64,000 nt of DNA from a virus: positions 32,001-96,000 of IMG/VR virus record IMGVR_UViG_3300023235_000012; one strand, 5' to 3'. Of this stretch, positions 19,804 through 51,717 are shown in pieces. A program made the translations under genes and the position numbers. The notes beneath the pieces are model-generated. The model made no database searches. It saw nothing but the letters and a program-made list of their open reading frames with translations, and was not told the origin of the DNA. Numbering within the stretch: position 1 is the stretch's first letter; each line of letters opens with the position of its first letter.

Positions 19804-20205
19804 TTAGTAATTTACCTGGTTATAATCCCCCAGGTAATGTGTTTCCCGATTGGGGATCAATTCTCCCCTCTTTTCGGCCATATGACTCACTTGAATCTTA
19901 CGATCCCGTTCGCGGCGAGCCTTTCGGGTTCGTCCCCTCTTAAGGGCTGAAAGATGATGGATTGTATCATGATCCAGTTCTTGCTCTTCTTCGCGTAGCA
20001 TCTTCTGTTGCCGTCGTCGGGCAGCAGCCGTTGCTTTTCTCGTCTTCTCACCTTTTCCAATAAACGCTTCTTTAGAGCGGATATCAGTAATCCAACGTTC
20101 TTGAACTAAGAGTCGTCGGAGACGAGAAAGGCCCTTATCTACTTCGTTGTTAAAGACTTTTACGGTGGTGGAAAAATCGCCCATTCCCTTGTGCTTGTTG
20201 CCCAT
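19804..20205 (-). CDS. rpsU: ribosomal protein bS21-like with C-terminal extension
   Basis: VKV.NN.VDKGL.RL.R...E....DIR.KE.F....EK.RK..AAARRR; about 60 extra residues. Confidence 0.7.
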   Translation of the reverse strand: MGNKHKGMGDFSTTVKVFNNEVDKGLSRLRRLLVQERWITDIRSKEAFIGKGEKTRKATAAARRRQQKMLREEEQELDHDTIHHLSALKRGRTRKARRERDRKIQVSHMAEKRGELIPNRETHYLGDYNQVNY

Positions 20206-20211
20206 TTTGAA

Positions 20212-20703
20212 TTATTCTCCCTTGGCAATGGTGGCACTCAACGCTCGACCTTCGAACGTCTTATTTTTAATATAACGTAAACCATCAATCATATCAATAA
20301 GTTTCTTGAATGTTTCTTCTCCTTGTGGTTTGTTTGCCAATTCTCTTCCACGAAAGCGCATTGTGATCTTAACTTGGTTTCCTTTTTTTAGAAATTCAGA
20401 AATACGCTTAGCTTTGATTTGAAGATCATGTTTGTCGGTTACTGGCCTGAGTCTGATTTCTTTGGTTTCAATCCGAGATTCCGCTTGTTTCTTCTTGCTC
20501 TCTTTCTCTTTTTTCTGAAGTTCGTATTTGTATTTTCCAATATCAGCTAATCTACAGACTGGTGGATCTGCTTTTTCTGTGATTAAAATTAAATCCAATC
20601 CTTCTCTAGCTGCTAAATTTTTAGCTTCGTTGATTGAAAGAATTCCATGATTACTTATTCGTACTTTTTCGAATCTGATTTGATCATTTATTATTATCTG
20701 CAA
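20212..20703 (-). CDS. infC: translation initiation factor IF-3
   Basis: INDQIR, GLDLI, PPVCRL.D.GKYKYE, KEIRLRP...HD, K.TMRFRGRE; TTG start. Confidence 0.95.
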   Translation of the reverse strand: MQIIINDQIRFEKVRISNHGILSINEAKNLAAREGLDLILITEKADPPVCRLADIGKYKYELQKKEKESKKKQAESRIETKEIRLRPVTDKHDLQIKAKRISEFLKKGNQVKITMRFRGRELANKPQGEETFKKLIDMIDGLRYIKNKTFEGRALSATIAKGE

Positions 20704-20715
20704 TTTTTGAGTCCT

Positions 20716-22143
20716 TTAAGTAGCAAGCCAACTTCCTTTTTTAGGTTTTTTGGGATTAATATCTTCTTGGGGTTTGATTACATCTTTTTTATCGAGGTAT
20801 TCATCTAGACGAGATCTCAAATCACCGTCTTGATCTAGAACATGCTGAATTTCGAGATTGTCTAACATTTTTGGATTATTGACAATCTGCTCTATCAATT
20901 CGTCATCTTTCAATACAGGCTCGGGTTCAGGCTCGGGCTCGACCGTTAAACTTTCTTCCACAAAAGAATCTTTTCTTCCATCTTCTAGGTTAAGAAGTTT
21001 TTCTTTGGATTCTTCTTTCTCGTCCTTATACCAATTGAAAGTGTATTGGCTCGCGATCAATAATACCACTGCCAACGGATCGAAGACAACAACGATCATT
21101 ACGATAAACCAAGTGACTGCTCTTTCAAGTAAATTGGAATCCGATTCTCCATAAATCGCTTCTGCGATGAATTTTATCGGCCCCACTTTAGCTTCTAGCT
21201 CTCTATTGACCGACTCCAGCTGAAATTTTTCCTGTGTCAACGAATCAAGATCGACATTGGCTTTTCGTATTTTTTCTTGTTGACTGTCAATAATTTTATC
21301 AAGATCATCTGTTTCACTGTGTCCCAGTTTAGCACGAAGACGATTGATCAATTCATTAGAGTCTTCGATTTGAGTCTTCGCCAAAGTAATTGCCAGGTTA
21401 CCTGTTCGAATTTTATCGATTTGTTCTTGGAGTTCCTGTCTTCTTTCTTGTTTCTGCGCTCTAAATGATTTTATTGCCGCGGCAGTAGCTGGACCATATT
21501 GACCATCCGGATTTGTTCCTACTATCTGTTGTGATTGTTTTATGTTCTGAGAATTAATAGAGGATTGCAATTGACCCAAAATAGATTCGATTTCGTTTAG
21601 TTCTTGCTGGAAAGGTTCGATACGAGCATTCTGAGATTGCTCTGCGTCCTTCAATCTTTGTAGAGAAACGTCTATTCTATTCTGTTCTTTATCAATTTGT
21701 GATTGAATGTTGACATCGGCACCAGAACCAACAGTCTGAGTTTGCTCTATTCGTTGTGTTGCTCGTTGGATGATTGATTCTTGTCTAGCGATCTCCGAAA
21801 TCACTCTTTCAATTTGAGCGATGCTTTCAGTTCCTGCTGCTTTCTGATCCGTGTGTGCCTTGGACAAGAAACCAAAGATTCCAGTCGATGTAATAATCAT
21901 CAAGATTACTACGCTCGAAACCAACCATATCTTGATCGGTTTAGAAGCTTTTCCCCAGAAATGATGAAGCCATAAAACGGCGGTTAGCTTTGAAAATTCA
22001 ATGATGCCACCCATGATAATAGCGGCGATTGGTGCGGCGGCAAAAATAGCAACGATTCCCGACACAGAATAATAAATGGCGACGGTGCTCAAAAGCAATG
22101 CCGTAATCAATGTCAGAAATGCAAAGAAAAACGTTTCGCGCAT
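20716..22143 (-). CDS. multi-TM coiled-coil membrane protein with peptidoglycan-binding-like motif
   Basis: Three N-terminal TM segments, long coiled coil containing PDGQYGPATAAAI, C-terminal TM (VVFDPLAV). Confidence 0.7.
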   Translation of the reverse strand: MRETFFFAFLTLITALLLSTVAIYYSVSGIVAIFAAAPIAAIIMGGIIEFSKLTAVLWLHHFWGKASKPIKIWLVSSVVILMIITSTGIFGFLSKAHTDQKAAGTESIAQIERVISEIARQESIIQRATQRIEQTQTVGSGADVNIQSQIDKEQNRIDVSLQRLKDAEQSQNARIEPFQQELNEIESILGQLQSSINSQNIKQSQQIVGTNPDGQYGPATAAAIKSFRAQKQERRQELQEQIDKIRTGNLAITLAKTQIEDSNELINRLRAKLGHSETDDLDKIIDSQQEKIRKANVDLDSLTQEKFQLESVNRELEAKVGPIKFIAEAIYGESDSNLLERAVTWFIVMIVVVFDPLAVVLLIASQYTFNWYKDEKEESKEKLLNLEDGRKDSFVEESLTVEPEPEPEPVLKDDELIEQIVNNPKMLDNLEIQHVLDQDGDLRSRLDEYLDKKDVIKPQEDINPKKPKKGSWLAT

Positions 22144-30083: not shown

Positions 30084-30632
30084 TTAAAAAACATCCATAA
30101 TATCCAGAACATCGTTCATCTTGTCTGAATCATCGACGAAATAAACGCATTCGGGATAGCTAGTTTCTTTTCCGGTTATCATATCTTTCCTGCTAACCCA
30201 TTCTGACGGGTTCCCTAATGGAACGGCAAGAAGCTGCTTCTTCTGGAGTCTAGGAGTAAACCAACTGGTGACGCTAGTATAGCTATTTGAAATCTGTACA
30301 GGCTGAAATTTTGGAACATAGCTCTTGAACGGATTGAGAACATATGCTTCATAATCAAAGTTTGGTAATTCTTCGATGTCGACTAGTTCCAATTCACCCT
30401 GAATAGCATCACCTGTCAAAATCCTCCAGTTCATCGGTACTTCGAGTTGATACTTTCCAATCGAAAGTTGAACAGCAGGATATTCATATTCGTTGAACAT
30501 CGTCAGGTTAACAAAATAATAGTCAATATCATCCGGATTGGATGCATCCAAAATTGCACATTTCTGCTTACTTATCCCGTCAACTATTTGAGTGATATCA
30601 AAAACGGTATTTTCTGGTGTTAAAATTCGGAT
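30084..30632 (-). CDS. conserved jumbo-phage hypothetical protein with probable AUC start
   Basis: Frame is open 27 codons above the TTG; GAGGAG-N6-ATC CGA ATT TTA ACA (xRILT). Confidence 0.7.
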   Translation of the reverse strand: MRILTPENTVFDITQIVDGISKQKCAILDASNPDDIDYYFVNLTMFNEYEYPAVQLSIGKYQLEVPMNWRILTGDAIQGELELVDIEELPNFDYEAYVLNPFKSYVPKFQPVQISNSYTSVTSWFTPRLQKKQLLAVPLGNPSEWVSRKDMITGKETSYPECVYFVDDSDKMNDVLDIMDVF

Positions 30633-30699
30633 AGTGATCTCCTCTAACTAAACACAAATAATAACGATAATAACAAAGAAGAGTGTCAATGTCAATAAA

Positions 30700-31568: not shown

Positions 31569-33044
31569 CTAAGCATGAAGCCTCCAATCAGCAATCTTAT
31601 AAACCGTGTGTTTTTGGATTTTTTCACGATAATATTTACAGCGTTCATTCTTGTGCCTGTTCGAGTATTTGGTTGATGAGCAGATATCAAACACCTGAAC
31701 GTCTTCCTTATCAGATCCTTTTCTAAGTCCACGACCAAGAGACTGTATCACTCTCGTGAAGGCTCGTCCCGATTCAATCATCACTAAATTATGAATCCGC
31801 TGAATATCAATGCCTGTAGAGGCAACACCATATGTAGCAACAGTGACAGTATGATTTCCGGCCTGTACTTCAGCATATCGATCTTGACGATCTTTACTTT
31901 TCATTGCACCTCGGACGAACTCTGCGTCTAATCCTAGCGCTTTAAGTTCTTCGGTTAGCGCTTTTCCGGGATCAACCCTATCGATGAGTATCAAGGTGTT
32001 TCCGGTTGTTTCTGTTATCTCTTTCGTGAATTTTGCTATGTAGCTTATTCTCTCTTCATCTTTGAGGATAGCGTCTAGCTCTGCATGATAATCGATGAAC
32101 TCTCTCTTGTCTACCAGCTGCATGATGGTGATTTCAGAATCAGCTAAGAATCCTTTGTCTTGTAGTTCTTTGGTTTCCACTTGCAAGACACAGGGACCGA
32201 TAGCCAATTCCAGCTGGATAGCTTCAATCTTTTCCTTAGGGATCGTGCCAGTTAGCCCCCAACGAATAGGAATATTTTTGAATTGATTGGTGAACAGATC
32301 CTTCAACACTGCTCCTGACATGGTGTGCGCTTCGTCGGAAATGATCGCCTGCTGACCCTCTAGGACTTCTTCTATTTCTTTCGGTGTTAGCTGATCCATT
32401 CCTCTTGGTTTCTTATAGAAAGCATTGATGGATTGCCATGTACAGATGGTAGCTTGCTTGTTCAACTCTTTCGTCTTCCCATAGAACAGCCCAGTTTCGA
32501 TGCCCATATCCGTGAAAACCTTTGCAGTCTGAGTGACGAGGTCAGTTCGAGGTACCACAATTAGCATTCTACCGTAGTTCTTGACCTTTTTTGCTAACGC
32601 GGCGGCGATTGCTGTATTATGGTGAATTATGCCGGAACTGTCCACATATAGATGAGGAGAAGGCAATGAAACATCAAAGTATTTTTGATTGGGCAATGTC
32701 TCAATTTTTCTAACCTTCTTAAAACCTCGAACGGTGTCGATTTTCTGACCACTGCACAAATCTCTAGCATTTATCTCTTTTCTATTTGAAAACAAAATAT
32801 GACCAGACGAACATTCAATGTTTGAATTATCTTCAAAAAATATCTTAATTCCATCTGTGGATTTCATAATTAGATGCAATATCGGCTCATATGACTCAAT
32901 TGATCTAATATATATTCCACTTGATTTGATATCTTTTTCAATGTTTTCTTGAAATTTAGATTTAGAAAATTCTTCATAATACGAAAATAAATCCCCAATC
33001 TTAAGAGTGCAGCTTTTCAAAAATTTCTCCTTCAATATTTCCAT
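31569..33044 (-). CDS. split-intein C-fragment (143 aa) fused to UvsW-like SF2 helicase C-part
   Basis: CSSGH (block B), YFDVS, IIHHN/T; then DEAH, GLTGT, STGID, QSLGRGLR; own SD AGGAG. Confidence 0.9.
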   Translation of the reverse strand: MEILKEKFLKSCTLKIGDLFSYYEEFSKSKFQENIEKDIKSSGIYIRSIESYEPILHLIMKSTDGIKIFFEDNSNIECSSGHILFSNRKEINARDLCSGQKIDTVRGFKKVRKIETLPNQKYFDVSLPSPHLYVDSSGIIHHNTAIAAALAKKVKNYGRMLIVVPRTDLVTQTAKVFTDMGIETGLFYGKTKELNKQATICTWQSINAFYKKPRGMDQLTPKEIEEVLEGQQAIISDEAHTMSGAVLKDLFTNQFKNIPIRWGLTGTIPKEKIEAIQLELAIGPCVLQVETKELQDKGFLADSEITIMQLVDKREFIDYHAELDAILKDEERISYIAKFTKEITETTGNTLILIDRVDPGKALTEELKALGLDAEFVRGAMKSKDRQDRYAEVQAGNHTVTVATYGVASTGIDIQRIHNLVMIESGRAFTRVIQSLGRGLRKGSDKEDVQVFDICSSTKYSNRHKNERCKYYREKIQKHTVYKIADWRLHA

Positions 33045-33150
33045 TACTTTCTCCTGAACCGGTTATTCCTTCTATTTTATTCATAAGAAACTTACCAAAT
33101 TCAGTATTTTCATCAATTAATATGTCGATATTAGTATTGTATCCTAGACA
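32616..33150 (-). mobile_element. naturally split mini-intein with atypical (N-proximal) split site
   Basis: GAGK/CLGYNT...stop (49 aa) and M...HHN/TAIAA (143 aa) in different frames; no homing endonuclease. Confidence 0.85.
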
Positions 33151-49186: not shown

Positions 49187-49410
49187 TAATCCACGTCATA
49201 TTCGTCATCGGGATCTTCTTCTATCTTCGTTTTTTCTTCTATGGCTTCATCTAGAAAGCTACAGCGTCCATGAACTTCTTCAAAACGACTCACATCAATT
49301 CCACAATCCTCAAATATTTCAACAAATCGAAAAGCAGCTTCTTCAAGCTCTTTATCGGTAGTATGTGCCATAAAAAGCTGCCAAAGATCAATAAACAATT
49401 CTTCTTGCAT
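49183..49410 (-). CDS. acidic hypothetical protein
   Basis: Coupled between uvsX and uvsY. Confidence 0.65.
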   Translation of the reverse strand: MQEELFIDLWQLFMAHTTDKELEEAAFRFVEIFEDCGIDVSRFEEVHGRCSFLDEAIEEKTKIEEDPDDEYDVDY

Positions 49411-50489
49411 TATTCCTCCAAAACTTCACCGGTTTCCGGATCGATTTCTTCTGTTTGTTTAACTTCTGGTTCATCATATCCAGCCATCATTTTGTCAAAA
49501 ATTTCAGGTCCATAATTCTTGCGGAAATCTTTAAATTCAGTACCATCTGGACTATTGTACTTATACCGATTTCCTTCTTTGATAATCAGACCTTTCTTCT
49601 CAAACAAATCGAACAAACCCGAATATGGATCCATTCCTGTTTCCCAAGGAATTCTGATTTCAATCTTCTCAAAGGGTTTCGCATAACGAGACTTTCTAAC
49701 TTGTGTCGATGCGCGGATACCAGTAACGTTTGTTACCTTGTTTCCATTTGCATCTTCCTTTAGCTTTAATTTTTCAAGTGCAACGATGATTGAACTTGCA
49801 AATTCAATAATCTTCCCACCAGTGATAACTGAATCAGGTCTGAACATGTCCTGTGAATCATATGTATGATTTGTGACCACCAATCCAATGTTCTCCGAGC
49901 CGATAAGAGCAGTGACATTCTTTACCAATGATCCAAGCTGTTTAGCTTTTCGACCCATATCACCTTTCATATCACCTTTCTGAAATTGATCCTGATCGGT
50001 CGGTGTTAATAGCATCCCAATAGAATCAACGACGAAGAGTAGCATTGGTCGATCTTCAAGTGGAAGATTGCCATATTCTCCCTTGTACTCTTTGATAAAA
50101 TCATTGATGAACTTGGCGACATCATCGATAAAACTAGCATTAATCTTCATGATTTTATCAGGACTAGTATCGACTCCTAGTTTTGTAAGCCATTCTTCAT
50201 CTAGAGCGTTTTCACTATCAATGATTACCGGGAAGATGCCTTTCTTTTGTGCATCTTTTACCAAATTTGCTGAGACGATATACGACTTTCCTGAACCCGA
50301 TGATCCGGCAAACATTGTCATCTTTCCTTCAAGAGGAACACCCCCATCCCATCTTCCAGAAATCAGAAAATTAAGGGCATAACTTCCGGTATCTAGCCAG
50401 GTTTTTGGATCATTAAAACCTTCACTAATTCCACCGATCCCCTTAGTTACTGACTTGCGAAATTTTGAAATATCAACTGGTTTTGTGAT
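49410..50489 (-). CDS. uvsX: RecA/UvsX recombinase with probable AUC start
   Basis: GSSGSGKS, IDSENA, VVDS, TNHTY, KSRY; frame open 56 codons above the first ATG (WLDTGSYALNFLISG...GGVP) up to AGGAGG-N5-ATC. Confidence 0.92.
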   Translation of the reverse strand: MTKPVDISKFRKSVTKGIGGISEGFNDPKTWLDTGSYALNFLISGRWDGGVPLEGKMTMFAGSSGSGKSYIVSANLVKDAQKKGIFPVIIDSENALDEEWLTKLGVDTSPDKIMKINASFIDDVAKFINDFIKEYKGEYGNLPLEDRPMLLFVVDSIGMLLTPTDQDQFQKGDMKGDMGRKAKQLGSLVKNVTALIGSENIGLVVTNHTYDSQDMFRPDSVITGGKIIEFASSIIVALEKLKLKEDANGNKVTNVTGIRASTQVRKSRYAKPFEKIEIRIPWETGMDPYSGLFDLFEKKGLIIKEGNRYKYNSPDGTEFKDFRKNYGPEIFDKMMAGYDEPEVKQTEEIDPETGEVLEE

Positions 50490-50561
50490 TATAACCTCCT
50501 TCTGTCTATTGTCAGACAGGTATTACGATAAAGAAAAGATCATTGATCTTTTCTTTTGAAA

Positions 50562-50591
50562 AGATGACAAGGGAATTAACCCCTGCCATCT
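50562..50591 (-). terminator. probable terminator after the SSB gene
   Basis: Imperfect AGATG.CA.GGG/CCC.TG.CATCT hairpin plus T tract on the minus strand. Confidence 0.55.
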
Positions 50592-50595
50592 GATT

Positions 50596-51717
50596 TTATT
50601 TAGATGATTGACGAGCCTTTAATTTCGCGATAAGATCTGCAGTGCTTGCCGATTGTTTTTCGGTCTTCACTTCTTCCTTTACCTCTTCCTTTACCTCTTC
50701 TTTAGGCTCTTCTTTAGGCTTTTCATCGACGTCGAATGGTGGTTCATCGTCGTCAGCTGCCTTTTCTTTTTTGAGCTTGCTTAGCAGATCCTTAGTCTTA
50801 GAATTTTCTGCTTCGGCCTCTGATTCCTGTTCCTTATCAGCGGATTTGTCGGCGCCGTTCGGCTGACTCGATTCGCTGAGATTAACACCAGTTGGCTTAA
50901 AATATTCACCCCAACGATCAGGATCATAAGGTAGGCCAGCAACTGATGCCTGAAACAATTCAATCATTGCTTCAACATGTGCATCATCTGGACGATTCGG
51001 AATAAAATCACTAAGATTAGACAAACCAAATTTCTCAATAGCTTCGAGCTCTTCGACTGTTAGAGCATCTTCTTCGAACGACCACTGACTAGCATCGTAA
51101 TTGTTATGCTCGCCTTTCTTACGCATATGGATTTCAAAGTCTCTACCATGCTCATAATCCGTAGGAGAGTATCTCATCTTTGGATTCATGATGATTGCTC
51201 TGATAGTTTCGTAAATACCAGGACTCATAATAAACCGACGAATTGGATTTTCTGGTGAAGTGGACTCTGCAATATTTCCTTTCTTATCAAGAAAACCTGG
51301 ATGCTTTCTAACTAATCCTTGATAAATATAAGAAATTCTTTTCTTGTAAGTTCGGTATTCTTCGAATCGGTTTTCTTCCCACCAAGGACCAATCTCTTTC
51401 TGGATCGGATCGATATTCTTATCAAAAACGTTCAAGTCAGGGACTACAACTTCAACTGTTGATCGATTACCAATATCAAATCCTTTCACTGCCGTGAATG
51501 GAAGTTTACGAATTGATCGTTCTTGCCAAAAGAATGGGTTTGATTCGTTACCATCTGGTAAAAACCTTAGGATAGCTTTGGAATCAATTGGGATCGCCCA
51601 ATGCGGATAAACTGGTCCATCACCCGGTAATTGGTTGTTAGAATTATTTCCACGATTTTGATTTTTTTCCTCTTCTTGAGCGAGAAGAGCGCGCATTTTT
51701 TCCATGTTTAGTGCCAT
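50596..51717 (-). CDS. single-stranded DNA-binding protein (gp32-like)
   Basis: YPHW, LRFLPDGN..N.FFW, PENPIRRF, PTDY..G.DF, acidic tail. Confidence 0.88.
   Translation of the reverse strand: MALNMEKMRALLAQEEEKNQNRGNNSNNQLPGDGPVYPHWAIPIDSKAILRFLPDGNESNPFFWQERSIRKLPFTAVKGFDIGNRSTVEVVVPDLNVFDKNIDPIQKEIGPWWEENRFEEYRTYKKRISYIYQGLVRKHPGFLDKKGNIAESTSPENPIRRFIMSPGIYETIRAIIMNPKMRYSPTDYEHGRDFEIHMRKKGEHNNYDASQWSFEEDALTVEELEAIEKFGLSNLSDFIPNRPDDAHVEAMIELFQASVAGLPYDPDRWGEYFKPTGVNLSESSQPNGADKSADKEQESEAEAENSKTKDLLSKLKKEKAADDDEPPFDVDEKPKEEPKEEVKEEVKEEVKTEKQSASTADLIAKLKARQSSK

What the first reader, a model, noticed from the sequence alone, without database searches (positions are those of the whole stretch)
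50322..50520. recA/uvsX begins at AUC behind a perfect SD and a hairpin: non-canonical initiation in a phage carrying its own IF3
Seen: the first ATG falls just before Walker A and would delete 56 typical RecA/UvsX N-terminal residues (xTKPVDISKFRKSVTK...WLDTGSYALNFLISG...GGVP). That stretch has no in-frame ATG/GTG/TTG and begins at AGGAGG-TTATA-ATC (50489). A CTGTCT/AGACAG hairpin abuts the SD. Known: IF3 suppresses initiation at AUU/AUC, which is how infC autoregulates. Inference: with the second AUC gene (30632), this suggests an IF3-sensitive regulon in which phage IF3/bS21 tune or time expression. Caveat: small accessory genes here show decay, so mutation is possible, but two independent G-to-C changes at start codons of otherwise intact genes seem unlikely.
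Basis: partly seen in the sequence, partly recalled or inferred. Interest (0 to 1): 0.8.

Follow-up and report, generated by a model that had tools for sequence, protein, structure and literature searches.

The report
Phage recombinase gene starting at AUC
A giant salt-lake phage has ATC exactly where all of its relatives have the ATG start of the recombinase gene uvsX, and the same in one other gene, so both most likely begin at a weak start codon, with nothing yet tying this to the phage's own initiation factor IF3.

Summary
uvsX lies on the minus strand at 49410-50489. It has ATC (50489-50487) 5 nt behind AAGGAGGT, the only copy of that 8-mer in the window. There is no in-frame ATG/GTG/TTG for 56 codons. 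Relatives place their start Met at this codon or beside it: 79/79 viral loci, 79/79 metagenome loci and 5 cultured jumbo phages all have ATG there.

ATC is not a one-assembly error. Contigs from three runs cover it without a difference.

A second gene (30084-30632, phrog_11279) also has ATC where 7/7 homologues have Met. It sits behind GAGGAG and a sigma70-like promoter. The stretches upstream of the first canonical start show no relaxed constraint.

The phage does encode a complete IF3 and a bS21. The proposed "IF3-sensitive regulon" is not supported:
- only 2 of about 177 genes are affected;
- the ATC is found only in this lineage;
- IF3-carrying relatives (Atu_ph07, Phosso) use ATG at uvsX;
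- phage infC genes start at TTG/GTG/ATG, not AUU-type codons.

Best reading: real near-cognate AUC initiation propped up by strong SDs, which lowers expression (about 0.6). Very recent start-loss mutations remain possible (about 0.2).

This scan has noted similar ATC/ATT starts in other phages.

The parts
49410..50489 (-). uvsX/recA-like recombinase gene read from ATC to TAA (359 codons plus stop)
   Evidence: Translation. Pfam RecA 5e-16 and phrog_97 (UvsX-like) 5e-64. Full-length alignment to 17 homologues. PDB UvsX/RecA matches from residue 8-31 onward.
50487..50489 (-). ATC codon at the start position defined by homologues
   Evidence: Contigs of X2, X3 and X4 cover it with 0 differences.
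50494..50501 (-). Extended Shine-Dalgarno AAGGAGGT, 5 nt (TTATA, counted from the last G) before ATC
   Evidence: It is the only AAGGAGGT in the window. It was the longest SD match in my scan; only 1 of 177 canonical starts reaches 7 nt.
50502..50519 (-). 7-bp hairpin CUGUCUG-ACAA-UAGACAG directly 5' of the SD
   Evidence: Minimum-free-energy and centroid fold.
50530..50591 (-). Two 12-bp hairpins between the gp32 stop and uvsX. The first (50591-50562) is terminator-like with a U tract.
   Evidence: z = -5.5; 0 of 200 shuffles fold as well. Terminator-like site.
50488..50515 (-). sigma70-like promoter match CTGACA-16-TATAAT (11 of 12). Its -10 box overlaps the SD-start spacer and the AT of ATC.
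   Evidence: Function is unknown. A transcript from it would begin about 50481, downstream of ATC.
50319..50321 (-). First canonical in-frame start (ATG), 5 residues before Walker A. This is the start that gene callers chose.
   Evidence: P0001 is the 301-aa call held in public collections.
50596..51717 (-). gp32-like ssDNA-binding protein gene, the upstream neighbour
   Evidence: phrog_1192 at 2e-44. The gp32-uvsX order is the same in Vibrio phage 2.275.O, CBB and GAP32.
30084..30632 (-). Second gene (phrog_11279, function unknown) read from ATC 30632-30630. GAGGAG lies at 30644-30639 and the spacer is ATCACT.
   Evidence: The relative L085 has ATG AGA ATT CTA ACA CCA at the same codon. 7 of 7 homologues start with Met there.
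30667..30695 (-). sigma70-like promoter TTGACA-17-TATTAT; 34 nt separate its -10 box from the second ATC
20212..20703 (-). Phage infC (IF3, N and C domains), probably starting at TTG
19804..20205 (-). Phage bS21 homologue with a C-terminal extension, directly downstream of infC

Best explanation
uvsX, and separately the phrog_11279 gene, are intact and functional, and their translation starts at the near-cognate codon AUC. Initiator fMet-tRNA is placed on AUC by a strong, well-spaced Shine-Dalgarno (AAGGAGGT + 5 nt; GAGGAG + 6 nt), so the protein starts with Met and has the normal full-length N-terminus. The ATG-to-ATC change is specific to this lineage. Its expected effect is a lower translation yield. 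Like every AUC/AUU start it would be sensitive to IF3 (host or phage), but no dedicated phage regulon is needed to explain it. Shown here: the position of ATC at the homologue start, its presence in three assemblies, the SD strength, and intact conserved N-terminal segments. Inferred: that ribosomes really initiate there, and at what level.
For: 1. Start position. 11 of 17 homologues have Met in the ATC column and 3 more start one codon later. Of 79 viral loci examined, 70 have ATG at the aligned codon and 9 at the adjacent codon (80 fetched, 1 at a contig edge). Of 79 metagenome loci examined, 75 and 4 (80 fetched, 1 at an edge; these partly repeat the viral contigs). Five cultured jumbo phages have ATG.
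2. Not an error of one assembly. Logan contigs of X2 (possible source), X3 and X4 (other samples) cover 50489 with 0 differences.
3. A truncated product is implausible. RecA/UvsX structures align from residue 8-31, and the first ATG lies 5 residues before Walker A.
4. No relaxed constraint upstream of the first canonical start. In uvsX, 11/11 positions invariant in the other 17 are kept, 29/31 positions that are at least 80% conserved are kept, and identity to the closest homologue is 85.5% against 79.5% in the rest. In the second gene the figures are 6/6, 9/10, and 92.3% against 76.1%.
5. SD strength. AAGGAGGT is the only copy in the window. Only 1 of 177 canonical starts has a 7-nt SD match.
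6. The second gene has its own sigma70-like promoter, then SD, then ATC, and 7/7 homologues have Met there.
7. Literature, passages read. AUC initiates at 1-2% of AUG in E. coli and yields N-terminal Met (10.1101/063800). Natural AUU/AUA starts in S. aureus all sit behind extended SDs and give about 10% of AUG, up to 30% in one case (PMC13009471).
Against: There is no protein or RNA evidence; no RNA run was listed. The ATC is not conserved in any relative found, so selection for it cannot be shown. Only one strain was seen: the contigs in three runs are identical and are all salt-lake metagenomes from 2018, possibly one campaign, and contigs hide minor variants. A strong promoter-like match overlaps the start, and a transcript from it would lack the SD and the AUC. 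UvsX is needed in large amounts in T4 (recalled, not from a call), which fits poorly with a weak start. In the minimum-free-energy fold, part of the SD (GGUU) sits in a weak 4-bp helix.
Confidence: 0.6

Rival explanations
1. Recent start-loss mutations. ATG-to-ATC changes have knocked down or inactivated uvsX and the phrog_11279 gene in this strain, and the genes are at the first step of decay or survive as hypomorphs.
For: ATC is unique among all relatives examined. The closest relatives (P0002/P0131 at 81%, P0122/P0132 at 78%) start with Met. Only one strain is documented. AUC is a poor start in E. coli, at 1-2% of AUG.
Against: Two conserved genes would have had to take the same change independently. 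Both keep strong SDs. Neither has a frameshift or stop. Both have N-terminal segments more conserved than the rest of the protein, so any loss must be very recent. My rough inference, assuming saturated synonymous divergence on the branch to the closest relative, puts it within about the last tenth of that branch. The allele is the consensus in three samples.
Confidence: 0.2
2. The AUC starts form a small IF3-sensitive set whose translation is timed or tuned by the phage's own IF3 and bS21, for example shut-off of early genes as phage IF3 accumulates.
For: The phage encodes a complete two-domain IF3 and an adjacent bS21. The equivalents of E. coli R25, R66, Y75, R99 and R129/R131/R133 are present in the alignment to chain 8jsg_A. 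R25 and R66 matter for start-codon discrimination according to PMC9723500 (passages); the role of the other residues is recalled. IF3 represses AUU/AUC starts (PMC5499595, passages). The second gene sits behind an early-type sigma70-like promoter.
Against: Only 2 of about 177 genes in the 137 kb are affected. IF3-carrying relatives Atu_ph07 and Phosso have ATG at uvsX. Phage infC here (TTG) and in Atu_ph07, Turkey3 and Phosso (GTG, ATG, GTG) lacks the AUU-type start that marks IF3 feedback. No paper linking phage IF3 to start-codon choice turned up in searches. The huge-phage paper PMC7162821 mentions IF3 and S21 but not start codons.
Confidence: 0.1
4. A dedicated decoding device, such as a phage-encoded initiator tRNA that reads AUC, encoded in the missing part of the genome.
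For: The record is estimated to be 37% complete. Relatives of this size commonly carry tRNA sets (recalled, not from a call).
Against: Aragorn finds no tRNA at all in the 137 kb held. Nothing requires this device, because ordinary initiator tRNA reads AUC weakly.
Confidence: 0.02

Closest known systems
AUU/AUC start of bacterial infC and AUU start of E. coli pcnB (near-cognate initiation discriminated by IF3)
   Same: A third-position near-cognate start codon sits behind an SD and is expected to be read by initiator tRNA and disfavoured by IF3 (PMC5499595, passages; 10.1101/063800, passages).
   Different: In infC the odd codon is conserved across bacteria and serves a proven feedback loop. 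Here the ATC is found in one phage lineage only, and no feedback or regulator has been shown.
S. aureus cvfC1 (AUU), ccpN (AUA) and infC (AUA) behind extended SD motifs
   Same: A non-canonical start is paired with an unusually long, well-spaced SD that directs its selection. Yield is about 10% of AUG, up to 30% in one case (PMC13009471, passages). Here the 8-nt AAGGAGGT lies 5 nt before AUC.
   Different: Those starts were mapped by ribosome profiling and are conserved among relatives. This one is inferred from homology and is not conserved.
ATC/ATT/ATA starts of conserved phage genes noted earlier in this scan, some explained as scars of homing-endonuclease insertion (e1-5401937, e1-5596456, e1-5873328, e1-5884294)
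   Same: An intact core phage gene has ATC at the Met position of its homologues behind a strong SD, and gene finders truncate it (these are AI notes about other genomes).
   Different: I found no homing-endonuclease gene next to either start. The upstream neighbours are gp32 and ClpP, and the intergenic spacers are 106 and 67 nt.
IF3 and bS21 genes of huge and jumbo phages (Atu_ph07, Phosso, 350-kb enterobacterial phages)
   Same: There is a complete infC homologue (phrog_9787; 36-40% identity to IF3 of Atu_ph07, Phosso and the E. coli jumbo phages I fetched; up to 45% over shorter matches). Carriage of IF3 and S21 by huge phages is published (PMC7162821, passages).
   Different: In those phages uvsX starts at ATG. 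No link to start-codon usage has been reported in the searches I ran.

Membership tests
RecA/UvsX recombinase | RecA-fold ATPase core with a Walker A motif and a full-length match to UvsX-type proteins | tested here: met
   Pfam RecA 5e-16 and phrog_97 5e-64. Matches to PDB UvsX chains 9gbg, 7z3m and 3io5. 57-81% identity to 8000 homologues, several of them covering 100% of the query.
RecA/UvsX recombinase | N-terminal segment ahead of Walker A present and conserved | tested here: met
   All 11 N-terminal positions that are invariant in 17 homologues are kept. This holds only if translation starts at or near ATC.
Natural near-cognate (AUU/AUC/AUA) initiation codon | The non-canonical codon occupies the start position defined by homologues, with no canonical alternative nearby | tested here: met
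   for uvsX. for the second gene.
Natural near-cognate (AUU/AUC/AUA) initiation codon | A Shine-Dalgarno at working distance | tested here: met
   AAGGAGGT + 5 nt and GAGGAG + 6 nt.
Natural near-cognate (AUU/AUC/AUA) initiation codon | Protein N-terminus or initiating ribosome mapped at the codon | not testable with these tools
   The phage is uncultured and no RNA run was listed.
IF3-autoregulation-type control (infC model) | The odd start codon is conserved among relatives | tested here: not met
   No ATC among 79 viral loci, 79 metagenome loci and 5 cultured relatives. 7 of 7 homologues of the second gene start with Met.
IF3-autoregulation-type control (infC model) | Expression responds to the IF3 level | not testable with these tools
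   This needs reporter assays.
IF3-autoregulation-type control (infC model) | The phage infC itself carries an AUU/AUC/AUA start | tested here: inconclusive
   TTG at 20703 is the first canonical start, 4 codons after the stop of the upstream gene. Three ATA codons follow. Relatives use GTG, ATG and GTG.
Bacterial-type IF3 (phage infC) | IF3_N and IF3_C domains both present | tested here: met
   PF05198 at 2e-21 and PF00707 at 7e-24. Aligns to PDB IF3 chains over residues 3-157.
Homing-endonuclease scar at a gene start | A homing-endonuclease gene, or its remnant, abuts the altered start | tested here: not met
   The upstream neighbours are gp32 and ClpP. The spacers hold only hairpins and promoter-like motifs.

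The most novel reading that the evidence does not exclude
The two AUC starts are sensors for a phage-run switch. As phage IF3, perhaps together with the extended bS21, accumulates on host 30S subunits, AUC-initiated early mRNAs (uvsX and the phrog_11279 gene) are selectively turned down or retimed. This would be a virus using start-codon fidelity as a gene-expression clock.
Probability: 0.1. Interest if true: 0.8.

Novelty: new member of a known kind. Interest (0 to 1): 0.4.

Why it matters
Practical point: public gene calls for this phage cut UvsX to 301 aa and the second protein to 155 or 138 aa. Annotation pipelines lose the N-termini of core phage genes when the start is AUC.

Biological point: this is a clean natural pair of AUC starts in a phage that also encodes IF3 and bS21, the two factors that act on start-site selection. 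That gives a ready test system, namely two short leaders and one factor gene, for asking what phage IF3 actually does. The question has been open since IF3 genes were found in huge phages (PMC7162821).

If the codons are merely tolerated weak starts, the case adds to the growing list of such starts in phages and is otherwise ordinary.

Tried and rejected
- Alternative starts. ATA (50492-50490) lies only 1-2 nt from the SD. CTG (50519-50517) lies in the hairpin stem and has no SD. I rejected both in favour of ATC.
- Genome-wide scans of the 137-kb record, using my own crude gene caller (about 177 genes). I looked for open, coding-like extensions of at least 20 codons. I looked for an SD of at least 5 nt followed by ATT/ATC/ATA/CTG upstream of the first canonical start. 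I also checked coding-like gaps. Only the two genes stand out. Eight other rows place the odd codon 1-9 codons from a canonical start, or name ATA at uvsX, and were left as ambiguous.
- tRNA search: none in the 137 kb.
- Homing-endonuclease scar idea from earlier notes: no such gene beside either start.
- Near-identical strains.
No dN/dS could therefore be computed for the N-terminal segment.
- RNA evidence: no RNA holder was listed. X5 did not cover the start region, and X3 and X4 covered it only with short contigs.
- The promoter-like site over the start was considered as a source of a leaderless mRNA. I rejected this because no ATG lies at the expected transcript start.
- Literature: searches found no report linking phage IF3 to non-canonical starts, and none of an AUC-started uvsX. 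Supplements were closed and were not consulted; supplementary start-codon tables of the cited papers might bear on frequencies.

Full report
**What is there.** The window is bases 32001-96000 of a 137,267-base IMG/VR virus record that is estimated to be 37% complete. The closest cultured relatives are jumbo phages: Agrobacterium phage Atu_ph07, Sinorhizobium phage Phosso, Vibrio phage 2.275.O, Pectobacterium CBB and Cronobacter GAP32. Their UvsX is 58-62% identical to this one.

On the minus strand a gp32-like gene (51717-50596) is followed by a 106-nt spacer and then a RecA/UvsX gene. The UvsX assignment rests on Pfam RecA 5e-16 and phrog_97 5e-64.

The reading frame opens after TAA 50525-50523. 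It contains no ATG, GTG or TTG until ATG 50321. The sequence just upstream reads hairpin (50519-50502), then AAGGAGGT (50501-50494), then TATA, then ATC (50489-50487). The coordinates and description in the finding are correct.

**Is ATC the start position?** Yes.
- In an alignment with 17 homologues, 11 have their first Met in the ATC column, 3 start one codon later, 2 carry a 4-residue extension, and one (P0008) is called 24 residues shorter.
- I fetched 80 viral loci; one lies at a contig edge. Of the 79 examined, 70 have ATG at the aligned codon and 9 have it at the neighbouring codon. None has ATC.
- I fetched 80 metagenome loci, which partly repeat the viral contigs. Of the 79 examined, 75 have ATG at the aligned codon and 4 beside it.
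- Five cultured jumbo phages have ATG there.
- Solved RecA and UvsX structures align from residue 8-31 onward. A product made from ATG 50321, five residues before Walker A, would therefore lack conserved core and N-terminal parts.

**Is it a sequencing error?** This is unlikely. Logan contigs from three runs cover the codon with no difference. X2 may be the source sample; X3 and X4 are other samples and studies. All are salt-lake metagenomes of 2018 and all carry an identical strain. This shows a real consensus base, not independent evolution, and contigs cannot show minor alleles.

Public gene calls for this protein are truncated to 301 aa on two contigs. That fits the absence of a canonical start in those assemblies.

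**The second case.** The gene at 30084-30632 belongs to phrog_11279, of unknown function; profile positions 2-163 match residues 2-178. It has ATC at 30632-30630, behind GAGGAG and a 6-nt spacer.
- A relative 61% identical reads ATG AGA ATT CTA ACA CCA at the same place.
- 7 of 7 database homologues (180-182 aa) start with Met in that column.
- A sigma70-like promoter, TTGACA-17-TATTAT, ends 34 nt upstream of this ATC.

**How many such genes?** I used a simple caller of my own, which gave about 177 genes in the 137 kb. Only these two genes have a long, coding-like, unoccupied extension upstream of the first canonical start. They are also the only two where an SD of at least 5 nt precedes a non-canonical codon far from any canonical one. 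Coding-like gaps gave no further case. The uvsX SD is the longest seen: only 1 of 177 canonical starts reaches 7 nt, and AAGGAGGT occurs once in the window.

**Translated or decaying?** The segments that would go untranslated without the ATC start show no relaxed constraint.

| Measure | uvsX (55 residues) | Second gene (26 residues) |
|---|---|---|
| Positions invariant in the other homologues that are kept | 11 of 11 | 6 of 6 |
| Positions at least 80% conserved that are kept | 29 of 31 | 9 of 10 |
| Identity to closest homologue, this segment | 85.5% | 92.3% |
| Identity to closest homologue, rest of protein | 79.5% | 76.1% |

Either the segments are still translated or both mutations are very recent.

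**Mechanism.** Published work (passages read) shows three things.
- AUC starts translation in E. coli at 1-2% of AUG, with Met at the N-terminus (10.1101/063800).
- IF3 rejects such codons, and infC uses AUU or AUC for autoregulation (PMC5499595).
- Natural AUU/AUA starts in S. aureus all sit behind extended SDs and give about 10% of AUG, up to 30% in one case (PMC13009471).

The uvsX leader has exactly that architecture. The most economical reading is therefore weak but real AUC initiation supported by an extended SD.

**The IF3 idea.** The phage does carry a complete IF3 (IF3_N plus IF3_C) and an adjacent bS21. Aligned to E. coli IF3 chain 8jsg_A, the equivalents of R25, R66, Y75, R99 and R129/R131/R133 are present. 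PMC9723500 shows that R25 and R66 matter for start-codon discrimination; the role of the other residues is recalled. So it looks like an ordinary, competent IF3.

- IF3-carrying relatives Atu_ph07 and Phosso start uvsX with ATG.
- The ATC is found nowhere else.
- Only two genes are involved.
- Phage infC starts at TTG here, and at GTG, ATG and GTG in three relatives, so it does not use an AUU-type codon.
- IF3 and S21 in huge phages are already published, with no link to start codons (PMC7162821). My four literature searches found no such link.

The idea is not excluded, but nothing here favours it beyond the general biochemistry of IF3.

**Other explanations.**
- No tRNA gene lies in the 137 kb, so a special initiator tRNA has no support.
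- Earlier notes of this scan explain some ATC starts in other phages as scars of homing-endonuclease insertion. Here the upstream neighbours are gp32 and ClpP, and no such gene is present.
- One oddity remains. A strong sigma70-like match, CTGACA-16-TATAAT, overlaps the SD-start spacer. Such matches are enriched in this genome: 24 observed against 6.2 ± 2.2 in shuffles, with 20 on the coding strand. If this one is active, its transcript would begin near 50481 and lack the AUC. uvsX mRNA carrying the SD would then have to come from read-through past two hairpins downstream of gp32.

**Verdict.** It is a new example of a known kind: near-cognate initiation behind a strong SD. Similar cases have been noted in other phages by this scan. 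The regulatory story around phage IF3 remains an untested and so far unsupported hypothesis, but it could be tested cheaply with reporters.

Noticed in passing
G000:C1 whole record; examples at window 30695, 34963, 39626, 9535 (minus strand): There is a clear set of sigma70-like promoters (at least 11 of 12 matches): 24 observed against 6.2 ± 2.2 in shuffles. 20 lie on the minus strand and most sit just upstream of gene starts.
   Followed up: partly
window 58361-58325 and 28697-28660 (minus strand); also G000:C1 117986 (minus strand, beyond the window): Three genes have ATG only 5-6 nt after the -10 box with no SD. They are candidate leaderless mRNAs, which is of interest in a phage that encodes IF3, a factor known to disfavour leaderless initiation (PMC9723500 discussion).
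   Followed up: no
window 50488-50515 (minus strand): The promoter-like site CTGACA-16-TATAAT overlaps the uvsX SD-start spacer. Its -35 box lies in the hairpin. A transcript from it would start downstream of the AUC.
   Followed up: partly
window 50523-50543 (minus strand): A six-codon mini-ORF (ATG...TAA) lies inside the second hairpin. It is in the same frame as uvsX, and its stop codon is the in-frame stop 33 nt before the ATC. It has no SD.
   Followed up: no
protein P0008 (relative, 69% identical, on a 50-kb Logan contig): Its UvsX call lacks the first 24 residues and begins at a position where relatives have Val. This may be another uvsX without a canonical start. The DNA could not be fetched.
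   Followed up: no
window 20701-20718 (minus strand): Phage infC begins at TTG, 4 codons after the stop of the upstream membrane-protein gene, and three ATA codons follow. Relatives start infC at GTG, ATG and GTG.
   Followed up: partly
L091 (Pseudomonas phage PA5oct, MK797984.1 136457-137728): The RecA-like gene matches only from residue 63 of the query, has an unrelated N-terminal part and a second match elsewhere in the record. A Hef-like homing-endonuclease gene follows it.
   Followed up: no
window 31569-33062 and L085 909-1781: The helicase genes near the second ATC gene carry intein-like sequences, both here and in the relative. I saw this in the ORF translations; earlier notes on this genome note it too.
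   Followed up: no
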